64,000 bases of DNA, from the NCBI GenBank assembly GCA_013178125.1, contig JABLXJ010000001.1, positions 326,538 to 390,537 of the forward strand, in the 5' to 3' direction. The stretch comes from Bacillota bacterium. Its GTDB lineage: Bacteria > Bacillota > SHA-98 > Ch115 > JABLXJ01. Positions 7,027-12,457 of the stretch are shown piece after piece. A model generated the notes under the pieces. That model worked only from the letters and a program-made list of their open reading frames with translations, searched no databases and was not told where the DNA came from. Within the stretch, counting starts at the first letter, position 1; every line of letters starts with the position of its first letter. The translations under genes and the position numbers were made by a program.

Positions 7027-7449
7027 ATGAGTTACCCTCAGGCGGTAGACCAATTTATTACGAAGCTGAACCGACGGGCTATCCCATATGTGATCCAGGA
7101 TGAAGTCATAATGCTAAATGATGGTTTGGGTGAGAGTTTCCTTGCCCATGACAATGTAAAGACTGACACTCTGGAGGTCTGGACTGGACCTGGTAAGACT
7201 GGCGTAAAGATTGTGACCTACACCATTCGGTCCCCAGGGGATACTCCATGGAAAACCTTGCTCCGGGTAATGGCTCCGGTTGAAAAGGTATATGTCACTT
7301 ATGAATCTTTGGGGGATCAGGTGGAAGCCGAGGATATGAACACGGTGCAAAGCAGCCTTGTGGCGACACAGACGGAGCTCGAACGGCATAAGGCCGATCT
7401 TAACTGCCATATAGAAAACGGAGAAATAGACGGAGGCAGCTTCGTGTAG
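7027..7449 (+). CDS. hypothetical phage protein
   Basis: ORF in tail module, no recognised motif. Confidence 0.4.
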   Translation: MSYPQAVDQFITKLNRRAIPYVIQDEVIMLNDGLGESFLAHDNVKTDTLEVWTGPGKTGVKIVTYTIRSPGDTPWKTLLRVMAPVEKVYVTYESLGDQVEAEDMNTVQSSLVATQTELERHKADLNCHIENGEIDGGSFV

Positions 7450-7467
7450 ATGGAGGGGTGAGACAGA

Positions 7468-8493
7468 ATGCCTCAGATAATCAAGATTCGGCGCGGGACT
7501 AAAGTGGAACTTGTCGCACGCGGAGCATTGGCCAGTGGAGAGCTCGGGTTCTGTACCGACACGAAAGAGGTCTATATCGGTGACGGTACGACGAACATCT
7601 TCGTAGGCCGGGCCATGTCGGGAACCTACGTAAACCGTCCCAACGCCTCAGTGCCAGGCAGATTCTACTACGTGACGTCAGGTGAGAATGCGGGATACCT
7701 GTATATCGATGACGGAACGACCTGGCACCGGGTCAATGCCCAGGCTCTATCTGATCTCACCGGCACCATTGACGATATCGCTGACGGCGCGACCTATGCA
7801 AAAGTCCTCAAAACCGATGTTTCCGGAGGGCACGTGAACAAGGTTTCGGACGGCACAAATACCAAGACCGCGGCGGAGATCGCGGGACACATAAATAACG
7901 TGACCATTCACCGGTTAATTAATGATAGCGGTACCGGCCCCACAGACCTGTGGTCAGCTCAGAAAATCAGGAACGAAATCGAGCTTGCAAAGCACAACAT
8001 CGAACCGCAGGCGAGCGTGAAGGACCAGCACTTAACCACGCCACCCTCAACACCAGCTGTTGGGGACAGGTATATAGTTCCTGCCGGTGCTACTGGGGCA
8101 TGGGTCGACAAGACGAATCAAATCGCCGAATGGAATGGTTCCGCCTGGGACTTTTATACCCCTCAGATAGGTTGGACCTGCTACGTCGACGATGAAGAGA
8201 AGGTCTACTCCTGGAACGGGAGTGCGTGGGTGAGGACAGGCGGAGCTCTCCAAACCATCGTGGCAGGGGCAGGCCTCACCGGTGGGGGTCAAGCTGATAC
8301 AGTTACTCTCAACGTGGGCGCAGGTAACGGAATCGTGGTAGACCCTGACTCGATCTCCGTAAAAGCCTACAATGGGATCACGGTCGACGGAAATGGTGTG
8401 GCTGCAAACATTGACGGGGTTTCCATCGTGTATGACGCGGCCAATGGCAACTGCCTGATGGTGGCCGCGGTGGATGGTGGAACGTTCGCATAG
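7468..8493 (+). CDS. phage tail fibre protein (paralogue 1)
   Basis: Conserved tail-fibre N-terminal motif IKIRRGT...ELGF.TDT...IGDG; RBS present. Confidence 0.6.
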   Translation: MPQIIKIRRGTKVELVARGALASGELGFCTDTKEVYIGDGTTNIFVGRAMSGTYVNRPNASVPGRFYYVTSGENAGYLYIDDGTTWHRVNAQALSDLTGTIDDIADGATYAKVLKTDVSGGHVNKVSDGTNTKTAAEIAGHINNVTIHRLINDSGTGPTDLWSAQKIRNEIELAKHNIEPQASVKDQHLTTPPSTPAVGDRYIVPAGATGAWVDKTNQIAEWNGSAWDFYTPQIGWTCYVDDEEKVYSWNGSAWVRTGGALQTIVAGAGLTGGGQADTVTLNVGAGNGIVVDPDSISVKAYNGITVDGNGVAANIDGVSIVYDAANGNCLMVAAVDGGTFA

Positions 8494-8504
8494 GTGGTGA
8501 TAGC

Positions 8505-9473
8505 ATGCCGAGGAAGGTACTCATCCAGATTCGCCGGGGGACGGAGGCCGAGCTGTCGGGCATTACCCTTGCTCCAGGGGAATTGGGGTTCACGACTGAT
8601 ACCAATAAGCTCTTCATCGGTACGACCGCGGGGAACGTTCTACTGGTCAACGTCTCCACGGCTGGTGATATGCTCAAAAGTGTCTACGACACCGATAATG
8701 ACGGCAAGGTAGACGCGGCTGAGGTGGCGGATAGTACTCCATGGGCAGGGGTAACGGGGAAACCCTCAACATTCCCGCCATCGGCCCACAAGAGCACCCA
8801 TGCTTCTGGGGGTAGCGATGCGCTTACACCGGGAGACATAGGGGCGGTAAATAAAGCTGGGGATATGATAACCGGTCCGATAGGGTTTCGTATCGGCAGT
8901 GCTAATCCTCGCTATCACCAAAACGTGGCGGCATACGAGTGGTCAACCAGTAGTGCGGCAGGAGCCTTTGTAATTGAGACCCCAATAACTGCTGCCTCCG
9001 AAAATGTTATGATGCGGTTATTAATAGAGGGATACTTTTATGATAGCACTTCGCCATTTTTTCTAATAGTAGGGGGATATATTTATGCATCCGGACCGAG
9101 TTTCTATAACTATGGTTACATTAATCTGAGTAAGAAACGCCCACTTGTGCGATGGGGACGTAATATAGCTACAGGCAAGGTTGTGCTGATCATTGGTGAT
9201 GTTGGAGACGTTTACTCATATCCTAAGTTATGGGTATCGCTTTTGGAGGGGCATAGTTCGAGCGATAATCACAGAACTGGCTGGACTATCACTCAGAAAA
9301 CTGACCTAACTGGGTATGATTTACTTACAACGGTGCTTGATGTGGGGGCCTTCTGGCACGCAGGCAACGACGGTTCTAATTCGGGTCTAGACGCTGACCT
9401 GCTTGACGGTCAGCACGCCTCGGCTTTCATGCCCAAAGGTCCTGTCACCTGGAACCAGCTAGCCGGGGTTTAG
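8505..9473 (+). CDS. phage tail fibre protein (paralogue 2)
   Basis: Same N-terminal motif (IQIRRGTEAEL...GELGFTTDT); C-terminal LDADLLDGQHASAF tail-fibre motif; AT-richer C-terminal half. Confidence 0.6.
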   Translation: MPRKVLIQIRRGTEAELSGITLAPGELGFTTDTNKLFIGTTAGNVLLVNVSTAGDMLKSVYDTDNDGKVDAAEVADSTPWAGVTGKPSTFPPSAHKSTHASGGSDALTPGDIGAVNKAGDMITGPIGFRIGSANPRYHQNVAAYEWSTSSAAGAFVIETPITAASENVMMRLLIEGYFYDSTSPFFLIVGGYIYASGPSFYNYGYINLSKKRPLVRWGRNIATGKVVLIIGDVGDVYSYPKLWVSLLEGHSSSDNHRTGWTITQKTDLTGYDLLTTVLDVGAFWHAGNDGSNSGLDADLLDGQHASAFMPKGPVTWNQLAGV

Positions 9474-9485
9474 GGGGTGAGGTGA

Positions 9486-10103
9486 TTGGACTATGGCGAA
9501 CTGATATACGGGCAGGCCGGGTATGGAGATAATGAAACTCTTAAGCCCGAAGACTTCCGACCCGACTTGATGGAGTATCTGCCTCCTTACTACCGGACCA
9601 GCAGGGTAATGACCGCGATTCAGAATGTGATTGCGAACGAGATAGGGCTGCTAAGGCAGGTCCTATTTAGCGTTCTGGATCAGTTCTTTGTAGATAGGGC
9701 GACTTGGGGCCTCGAGATATGGGAGAAGGAATTAGGTATCCCGGTAGACCCGACCAAGCCTGATGACTTCAGACGGTCAGTGATCAAGTCTAAGATCCGA
9801 GGGGTAGGGACCGCTACCGTTGACCTTATAAAGCAGGTGGCGGCGGCCTTCTCTGGCGGAGAGGTTGATGTAATTGAATACCCGGCGGAATACTGTTTCG
9901 TGGTGAAGTTTATCGGGACGAGAGGTATCCCGCCCAACCTAAATGATCTTACGGATTCGATTGAGCAGGTAAAACCTGCTCATCTTGTTTTTTCGTATGC
10001 TTATACTTATCTGGTATGGCAAGAGGCTTTGACATATATCTGGACGGAGGCAAGCGGGATGACCTGGGACCAATTCAGGGTGGCAAAGCCAAACACTCAG
10101 TGA
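9486..10103 (+). CDS. phage tail protein (possibly XkdU/DUF2313-like)
   Basis: Position in tail module; family assignment from weak motif memory only. Confidence 0.35.
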   Translation: MDYGELIYGQAGYGDNETLKPEDFRPDLMEYLPPYYRTSRVMTAIQNVIANEIGLLRQVLFSVLDQFFVDRATWGLEIWEKELGIPVDPTKPDDFRRSVIKSKIRGVGTATVDLIKQVAAAFSGGEVDVIEYPAEYCFVVKFIGTRGIPPNLNDLTDSIEQVKPAHLVFSYAYTYLVWQEALTYIWTEASGMTWDQFRVAKPNTQ

Positions 10104-10112
10104 CGAGGAGAG

Positions 10113-10901
10113 GTGACGCCTATGCAGACTACTTCTAACTATGGGCTAAAGAAACCGGATGGAACTGACGTAGTGAATATCTCGGACCTAAATTACAATG
10201 CCGATCAGATTGACGCGGCACTAACCCCCACGGCAGACCCGTCCCAGACACCAACGAACAACGGGCCGGGCAAGCTGGTGCAGTGGGTAAGCTGGATCGC
10301 TAACCGCATCAAGGCGATCACGGGAAAGGCGAACTGGTGGGAGGCTCCGGCGACGACCCTTGAGGCGGCAAAGGCCCACATGGACGCGGTGGCACCGCAC
10401 AGCGGGCATGTGCTGACCAGTGATGTTGTAACGGTGCCGACAGCTAACAAGATCCTCCGGTTAAATTCTGACGGTAAATTGCCTGCCAGCATCACGGGTG
10501 ATGCCGCAACAGTTGGCGGTGTCAGCCCCAGTGGTTTTGCTCCGTCCTCGCATGTTGGAGCCGGAGGGTCAGCCCACGCGGTAGCCACTACAACGACGGC
10601 GGGCTTTATGTCGGCGGCGGACAAAAGCAAACTTGACTCGATACCTTCCGGTGCGGAACCTAACCAGAATGCGTTTAGTAATGTCAAGGTAGGAGCTACG
10701 ATTATATCTGCTGATCAGGAGCAGGATACCCTTGAACTGGTAGCCGGGGCTAACGTTACGTTAACCCCGGATGCTGAAGGGGATAAGGTGACTATAGGGG
10801 TAAGTGGACTAACTGTGGCGCGAAACGGCGGACAAAATATCTGGGTACAGTCTACTCAACCTACGGCTCAGGCGGTAGGTGACATCTGGATTCAGACTTA
10901 A
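10113..10901 (+). CDS. phage tail fibre protein with fibre-repeat motif
   Basis: N-terminal TSNYGLKKPDGTD and GFMSAADKSKLD tail-fibre repeat motifs. Confidence 0.6.
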   Translation: MTPMQTTSNYGLKKPDGTDVVNISDLNYNADQIDAALTPTADPSQTPTNNGPGKLVQWVSWIANRIKAITGKANWWEAPATTLEAAKAHMDAVAPHSGHVLTSDVVTVPTANKILRLNSDGKLPASITGDAATVGGVSPSGFAPSSHVGAGGSAHAVATTTTAGFMSAADKSKLDSIPSGAEPNQNAFSNVKVGATIISADQEQDTLELVAGANVTLTPDAEGDKVTIGVSGLTVARNGGQNIWVQSTQPTAQAVGDIWIQT

Positions 10902-10932
10902 GACTGTTGGCGGTGCTTGGGGGGGTGATGGA

Positions 10933-11970
10933 ATGGCACAGCTCAAATATTGGAATGGAAGCGCGTGGGTGGATTATAAGAAAAAGCCAAAGTATTGGAA
11001 TGGTAGTCAGTGGGTGTCTGGTATCGGCAAAGTGTGGAATGGGAGTGCATGGGTAGACCTCTTGAGTTATTATTCTTATTTTGGTAGTTGGGCTAGCACC
11101 TATTCTTATTCTAATTTGTATAAGGTTTCATCTACTGGGTCTCAGGTGTGGCAAGTTCGTTGGACTTTCCAAGGCATAAGAGATGTGAAAGTAGACCCTA
11201 ATGGATATATTTATACTGCTAGTGGTGACGGCGCTGCTGTCCGCAAAATATCACCTTCCGGCTCCCTGGTGTGGCGTTTTGTGGGCAGTACTGGATATGG
11301 TGCAAATGGAGTAGCAGTAGGTTCTGATGGATACGTTTACTCTGCTAATAGTGACGGTACTGTCCGTAAAATAACACCTAATGGTGGACAGGTGTGGTGT
11401 TTTACTGACCCGGATCGCACATTTTATGCTGTAGCAGTAGATATTAATAACTATGTGTACGCTGGCTGTTCTAACTATACTAAAGCTATTCGCAAAATAT
11501 CACCTAGTGGGGGAGAGGTATGGGCTTTATCTCGTAGCAGTTTTGGGTCGGATGTAGTAGTAGATGCCCAAGGGAATGTTTATTGTAGCTCCGGAAGCCT
11601 TTATAAGGTGTCATCAAGCGGTTCAGTGCTATGGGAATTCACAAACGCGAGCGGAAGTCCTACAGTAGGCCCTGGTGGATATGTTTATGCGTCCGGTAGT
11701 AGTGGTCTTATCGCTAAAATATCACCTAGTGGATCACAAGTGTGGGGTTACACCGATCCAAATTCATCTTCGGTAATTAGTCTAACAGTAGACCCATACG
11801 GATATATTTATTATTGTCCTTATGCAGGGGCACCCTCTTCATCTACTGTATATTGCTATTACAAAATATCGCCTAGTGGTGTTAGATTATGGACTTTCGT
11901 TGTTGCGGAAGGTGAAGGATATGTTGCAGTTGACCCTGGAGTTTTAGGAGCTTTCCCAAGTTATTGGTAA
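10933..11970 (+). CDS. beta-propeller repeat protein, putative distal tail/receptor-binding protein
   Basis: Seven repeats of the type VRKISPSGS.VW.F; three N-terminal WNGSAWV repeats; RBS before ATG at 10933 (track start 10879 overlaps upstream gene); AT-rich. Confidence 0.5.
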   Translation: MAQLKYWNGSAWVDYKKKPKYWNGSQWVSGIGKVWNGSAWVDLLSYYSYFGSWASTYSYSNLYKVSSTGSQVWQVRWTFQGIRDVKVDPNGYIYTASGDGAAVRKISPSGSLVWRFVGSTGYGANGVAVGSDGYVYSANSDGTVRKITPNGGQVWCFTDPDRTFYAVAVDINNYVYAGCSNYTKAIRKISPSGGEVWALSRSSFGSDVVVDAQGNVYCSSGSLYKVSSSGSVLWEFTNASGSPTVGPGGYVYASGSSGLIAKISPSGSQVWGYTDPNSSSVISLTVDPYGYIYYCPYAGAPSSSTVYCYYKISPSGVRLWTFVVAEGEGYVAVDPGVLGAFPSYW

Positions 11971-11991: not shown

Positions 11992-12300
11992 ATGCCGATG
12001 CTGTTTTATGAGACGGAATCTGATACGCGAGGTCGGGTAATGCTGATTCATTACATGCCCGAGCAATTGACTGAGGAAGAGCGTAGCAAGGGAATAAGCG
12101 TAGATATAGTTCCTGACCCTCCGCAGCCGGTGAAAGGCAAATCCCATGTGCTCTACGTAAATCCTCAAACGGGCGAGACCTGGTATGAGCAGGTGGATAG
12201 GCTGCTTACGCAGGAGGAGCAGATGGAGGACCTGCGGAGCCAGAATCTTGACCTAATGGCTGCCATCGCCGATATGGCTGTAAAACTGGGGGTGATATAA
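11992..12300 (+). CDS. hypothetical phage protein
   Basis: ORF with RBS (aaggagg) following tail-fibre genes. Confidence 0.4.
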   Translation: MPMLFYETESDTRGRVMLIHYMPEQLTEEERSKGISVDIVPDPPQPVKGKSHVLYVNPQTGETWYEQVDRLLTQEEQMEDLRSQNLDLMAAIADMAVKLGVI

Positions 12301-12301
12301 C

Positions 12302-12457
12302 ATGAGCGCTTACTGGGTTAACATATTCTATTCCCTTGTTACGAGCGGAAGGAAGACCGTCAATGATGTACCTGAGAGTATAAGGCAACAGGTGATTGAT
12401 AGGCTCACGCAGGAAGGTTATGTAATGAATCCTGATGGCTCGGTGACGAAGGTCTAG
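12302..12457 (+). CDS. small phage protein (XkdX-like), 51 aa, absent from ORF track
   Basis: ATG one base after upstream stop; translation MSAYWVNIFYSLVTSGRKTVNDVPESIRQQVIDRLTQEGYVMNPDGSVTKV. Confidence 0.35.
   Translation: MSAYWVNIFYSLVTSGRKTVNDVPESIRQQVIDRLTQEGYVMNPDGSVTKV

What the first reader, a model, noticed from the sequence alone, without database searches (positions are those of the whole stretch)
7468..11970. Tail-fibre locus with three paralogues and a beta-propeller distal protein, AT-rich distal domains
Two consecutive genes share a conserved N-terminal fibre motif but diverge completely in their C-terminal parts. A third fibre gene carries GFMSAADKSKLD repeats and is followed by a seven-blade propeller-like repeat protein with three WNGSAWV repeats. 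The distal (receptor-binding) parts are markedly AT-richer than the proximal parts, as expected for recently exchanged host-range cassettes.
Basis: partly seen in the sequence, partly recalled or inferred. Interest (0 to 1): 0.5.

Follow-up and report, generated by a model that had tools for sequence, protein, structure and literature searches.

The report
Modular prophage tail-fibre and adhesin locus
This is the host-recognition end of a PBSX/Mu-type contractile-tail prophage in a Firmicutes genome: a widely conserved set of fibre genes in which one internal domain and a separately encoded seven-bladed propeller were swapped in from AT-richer donors, which is ordinary phage biology apart from two docking-motif pairs I found no description of in the papers I could search.

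Summary
Fibres 1 and 2 share a 48-residue Mtd_N N-terminus (E 2e-9) and nothing else. Fibre 3 has a different N-terminus, so there are not three paralogues. GFMSAADKSKLD occurs once, not as repeats. The last gene is a confident seven-bladed beta-propeller (pLDDT 86.5) preceded by three WNGS[AQ]WV repeats.

AT-richness holds for two of the four genes: the centre of fibre 2 (GC3 0.32-0.40) and the propeller (GC3 0.31, lowest of 55 ORFs). Both AT-rich blocks lie inside segments with no DNA homology to the related element L003. Fibre 1 is uniform and is the most conserved gene of the module.

The order Baseplate J, p140, fibre 1, fibre 2, Gp48, fibre 3 recurs in at least 155 IMG/VR contigs. My best reading is two fibre systems:
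- a chain p140 to fibre 1 to fibre 2, joined by a C-terminal DGGxF motif meeting an Mtd_N domain;
- fibre 3, ending GDIWIQT, capped by the propeller adhesin through its three Trp repeats, as in T2/S16 gp37-gp38.

Both joints are inferred from gene adjacency (Fisher p 5e-17 for the second), not shown structurally. It is a new variant of a known kind, of moderate interest.

The parts
7027..7449 (+). p140: a 140-aa protein directly after Baseplate J, ending EIDGGSFV (DGGSFV at 7429-7446). Proposed baseplate-proximal anchor of fibre system A.
   Evidence: It matches positions 3-133 of the 416-position profile phrog_18608, E 5e-33. It is 44% identical to the N-terminal roughly 134 residues of the 416-aa tail fibre gp53 of Clostridium phage phiCT19406B, which also directly follows Baseplate J. 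It is present in 76 of 80 IMG/VR relatives, and 69 of those 76 have DGG[STYA]F within the last 16 residues.
7468..8493 (+). Fibre 1 (341 aa): Mtd_N (7480-7593), DUF2793 with two WNGSAW motifs (8008-8232), adenovirus-like shaft repeats, and the C-terminus VDGGTFA (8473-8490). A conserved segment, not a variable tip.
   Evidence: Pfam Mtd_N E 3.9e-18 and DUF2793 E 1.8e-23. PDB sequence matches to an adenoviral fibre (8on5) and to the DUF2793 fibre of roseophage R4C (8gtc_S). It is 67-82% identical in 80 loci. GC3 is uniform. The C-terminus is DGG[ST]F in 79 of 80 loci.
8505..9473 (+). Fibre 2 (322 aa): a conserved Mtd_N and shaft N-terminus (8505-8845), an exchanged AT-rich beta-sandwich cassette (about 8846-9437), and a conserved C-terminal tail TWNQLAGV (9447-9470).
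9486..10103 (+). Mu Gp48 / P2 gpI-type baseplate wedge protein separating the two fibre systems.
   Evidence: Pfam Phage_Mu_Gp48 E 2.2e-33. It holds the same position in all related loci.
10113..10901 (+). Fibre 3 (262 aa): a conserved N-terminal part (to about 10676), a single GFMSAADKSKLD motif (10602-10637), a divergent C-terminal part, and the terminal peptide GDIWIQT (10878-10898).
   Evidence: phrog_7389 tail fibre, E 9e-23. It is 72-74% identical to P0083 and P0084 up to ..DKVTIGV and unrelated after that. The same kind of GD[IV]W ending is found in L014, L020 and L080, and in 6 of its 120 best homologues, the window's own protein included.
10933..11970 (+). Propeller adhesin (345 aa): three WNGS[AQ]WV repeats (10951-11055), a seven-bladed beta-propeller (about 11065-11931), and the conserved C-terminal motif DPGVLGAFPSYW (11932-11967). 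It has its own Shine-Dalgarno sequence (GGGGGTGA) and ATG.
   Evidence: AlphaFold2 pLDDT 86.5. Foldseek TM 0.86 to the 7-bladed designer protein 7bid and 0.70-0.74 to BtuG-type surface lipoproteins. phrog_8401 beta-propeller repeat protein, E 8.6e-41. GC3 is 0.312. Homologues are fused to fibre shafts: P0003, P0005, P0010, P0001 and L055. The repeats match DUF2510 at 26.4 bits against a cut-off of 24. Start site read.
11992..12457 (+). p102 (11992-12300) and p51 (12302-12457): small proteins in the positions that XkdW and XkdX hold after the last fibre gene in PBSX. Function unknown.
   Evidence: phrog_3834, E 2.2e-17. There is no Pfam hit. p102 homologues sit next to propeller genes in L002, L005 and L055. 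However, small proteins of similar size also follow the last fibre gene in most related loci.

Best explanation
The region is the host-recognition module of a PBSX/Mu-type contractile-tail prophage, or tailocin-like element, in a Firmicutes MAG. It encodes two fibre systems on either side of the Gp48 wedge gene.

System A (7027-9473):
- p140 anchors to the baseplate.
- Fibre 1 is a highly conserved middle segment.
- Fibre 2 carries the exchangeable beta-sandwich domain.
- I infer that these three join head to tail. The C-terminal [IV]DGGxF peptide of one protein would dock the Mtd_N domain of the next.

System B (10113-11970):
- Fibre 3 is a short fibre ending in ..GDIWIQT.
- The separately translated propeller protein is its distal adhesin.
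- I infer that the three N-terminal Trp repeats form a pseudo-threefold plug on the presumably trimeric fibre tip. The solved precedent is monomeric gp38 capping trimeric gp37 in phage S16.
- The seven-bladed propeller would then bind, or possibly cleave, a cell-surface glycan.

Host range evolves by recombination at the conserved junctions. The fibre 2 centre and the propeller domain came from AT-richer donors.

Shown: gene identities, fold, conservation pattern, composition, homology breakpoints and motif co-occurrence. Inferred: physical docking, stoichiometry and receptor binding.
For: Module identity:
- Tape measure, LysM, YQBQ, sheath initiator, Baseplate J and Gp48, then a BhlA holin and Amidase_3.

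Conserved order:
- The order J, p140, fibre 1, fibre 2, Gp48, fibre 3 is seen in L007, L008, L012, L014 and L016.
- All 80 retained IMG/VR loci fit it, out of 155 relatives.

Cassette exchange:
- Breakpoints against L003 are at 8845/9438 and 10676.
- The GC3 troughs lie within the non-homologous segments.
- The best propeller homologues are only 39-42% identical and come from low-GC Clostridia and Bacilli.

System A chain:
- p140 and fibre 1 both end in DGGxF, and each is followed by an Mtd_N gene. There are 118 non-redundant adjacent pairs within the family.
- The unrelated locus L146 has the same pairing..IDGGTF* followed by an Mtd_N-like N-terminus.
- In Clostridium phages the p140 domain is fused to a shaft carrying the same GDM..YD...GKVD.AE motif that follows Mtd_N in fibre 2.
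- L003 has lost fibre 1, yet keeps p140 ending ..DGGTFV directly before fibre 2.
- Fibre 1 evolves more slowly than the baseplate genes. This is expected for a segment with two protein interfaces and no receptor contact.

System B cap:
- A fibre ending GD[IVL]W followed by a gene that starts with three (G/N)(G/S)xW repeats occurs in 7 pairs. There are 2 tail-only pairs, 3 repeat-only pairs and 2376 with neither; Fisher p 5e-17.
- The distal domains in these pairs differ: the propeller here, unrelated domains in the 148-, 187- and 194-aa proteins elsewhere, and a Pfam GP38 adhesin (E 2e-13) in L182.
- Propeller homologues are fused to fibre N-termini and shafts.
- Precedent: (gp37)3-gp38 docking uses three conserved Trp in three symmetry-equivalent pockets (PMC6851490).
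- Single-copy MxxLKYWNGSAWV N-termini precede collagen-like, hence trimeric, shafts in L111, L155 and L192.
Against: - No structure or complex prediction supports either joint. The three repeats are modelled at low confidence, with block-mean pLDDT 36-62.
- The S16 attachment domain is helical, whereas these repeats are predicted as short strands.
- Fused homologues carry two W motifs per chain, not one. The '3 x 1 = 1 x 3' argument is therefore not clean.
- In L146 and in phiCT19406B gp54 the W repeats are C-terminal.
- L017 has a GDVW tail, but the 65 residues seen of the downstream gene have no repeats.
- The collagen-type proteins with one WNGSAW copy follow proteins that do not end in GDxW.
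- The DGGxF to Mtd_N pairing is almost entirely within one gene family, so it could reflect shared ancestry rather than interaction.
- The propeller resembles generic propellers (designer proteins, BtuG, YxaL) and no solved phage receptor-binding protein.
- Loci were gathered by homology or motif searches, so counts are not from a random sample.
Confidence: 0.6

Rival explanations
1. Fibres 1 and 2 are parallel or alternative fibres. Each would dock independently through its Mtd_N domain to p140 or to the baseplate, giving two co-existing or competing tips rather than one three-segment fibre.
For: Both carry the same docking domain. Multi-RBP baseplates are common among phages (general knowledge). 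Fibre 1 has its own DUF2793 knob, which in roseophage R4C lies next to a lectin-like foot domain.
Against: It leaves unexplained why fibre 1 keeps the same DGGTF C-terminus as p140 in 79 of 80 loci. It also does not explain why fibre 1 is the slowest-evolving gene, or why many relatives have a fibre 2 of only about 111 aa with little beyond Mtd_N and the C-terminal tail.
Confidence: 0.3
2. Fibre 3 and the propeller are one gene broken by a frameshift or an assembly error. The true product would be a fused fibre-propeller, as in Clostridium tepidiprofundi P0003 or L055.
For: The two frames overlap by 23 nt. The propeller frame opens at 10879, and the in-frame sequence upstream of the ATG reads ..KTVGGAWGGDG, which looks like a degenerate fourth repeat. 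A G7 run lies at 10918-10925. Most propeller homologues are fused to shafts.
Against: Independent loci end their fibre at the same motif and start a separate gene with three repeats: L014/L015, L020, L080, L182 and L159. A strong Shine-Dalgarno sequence precedes ATG 10933. The NCBI MAG record also calls fibre 3 as a separate protein of 259 aa, P0082. Stand-alone proteins with three repeats plus a propeller exist elsewhere, P0011 and P0020. Fused homologues have about 100 extra residues between the GDIW motif and the W motifs.
Confidence: 0.08
3. The propeller protein is not a virion component. It would be a cargo or moron gene, or a secreted enzyme such as a lactonase, lyase or lysis accessory in the manner of PBSX XepA. 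On this reading the W repeats bind cell wall rather than fibre.
For: Its composition is foreign. There are weak Pfam hits to SGL/gluconolactonase and to the lambda-carrageenase propeller. It lies near the lysis cassette. Short Trp-rich repeats are typical of cell-wall-binding modules (general knowledge). The repeats match DUF2510, a non-phage family.
Against: It lies upstream of the XkdW- and XkdX-like genes, which follow the last fibre gene in relatives. Homologous propellers are covalently fused to fibre N-termini and shafts. The repeats are tightly coupled to a GDxW fibre tail in the preceding gene. No signal peptide is evident in the N-terminus (sequence).
Confidence: 0.1
4. The AT-rich stretches reflect amino-acid content or codon selection within these domains, not recent import.
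For: The fibre 2 centre is also somewhat AT-richer in the homologues L007 and L008. The propeller is rich in Tyr, Ser, Asn and Lys codons (sequence).
Against: The shift is at third codon positions: propeller GC3 is 0.31 while GC2 is 0.53. It starts and stops at homology and domain boundaries. The neighbouring p102 gene returns at once to GC3 0.59.
Confidence: 0.05

Closest known systems
T2/S16-type long tail fibre tip: trimeric gp37 capped by a single gp38 adhesin (Dunne et al. 2018, as summarised in PMC6851490 sect. 2.7)
   Same: The distal adhesin is encoded separately and immediately downstream of the fibre gene. Its N-terminal attachment element has three Trp-bearing units facing a threefold fibre end. 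Its variable body determines host range. One relative of the repeat architecture, L182, carries a true Pfam GP38 body behind the three WNGSAW repeats.
   Different: The window protein has no GP38 Pfam match, and its body is a seven-bladed propeller. The repeats are predicted as strands rather than helices. The host is a Firmicute and the tail is of PBSX/Mu type. Docking and 1:3 stoichiometry are inferred, not shown.
PBSX XkdT-XkdU-XkdV-XkdW-XkdX, Mu gp47-gp48-S-U and P2 J-I-H-G baseplate and fibre modules
   Same: Baseplate J and a Gp48/gpI-like wedge protein are followed by a fibre gene, then two small proteins, then a holin and amidase. Clostridium tetani phages annotated as xkd-like share the p140 domain.
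   Different: Three extra genes (p140, fibre 1 and fibre 2) lie between J and Gp48. The small downstream proteins have no XkdW or XkdX Pfam match. There is no invertible segment.
Bordetella phage BPP-1 Mtd (major tropism determinant) and streptococcal HylP N-terminal domain (Pfam Mtd_N)
   Same: Fibres 1 and 2 begin with this domain. In BPP-1, Mtd is a separately encoded receptor-binding protein mounted on the tail fibres (general knowledge).
   Different: There is no C-type-lectin variable region. No template or variable repeat pair was found, and none of the annotated genes of the prophage portion held in the window (1-13.7 kb) is a reverse transcriptase.
RcGTA rcc00171 and roseophage R4C fibre (DUF2793; PDB 8GTC)
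   Same: Residues 179-328 of fibre 1 match the R4C fibre chain (E 0.0015). That chain forms trimeric baseplate fibres with a knob and a lectin-like foot. DUF2793 proteins are annotated as tail fibres.
   Different: Here DUF2793 is embedded between Mtd_N and adenovirus-like shaft repeats, in a myovirus-type module. The match is weak.
Beta-propeller receptor-binding modules: S. aureus phi11 Gp45 (five blades) and beta-propeller lectin fibres of extracellular contractile injection systems
   Same: A propeller serves as the distal, presumably glycan-binding, part of a tail fibre (PMC4901313, from its listing; PMC12923769).
   Different: Those propellers are domains of the fibre polypeptide. This one has seven blades of the PQQ/SBBP repeat type and is a separate protein. 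No sequence or top structural match to them was found.

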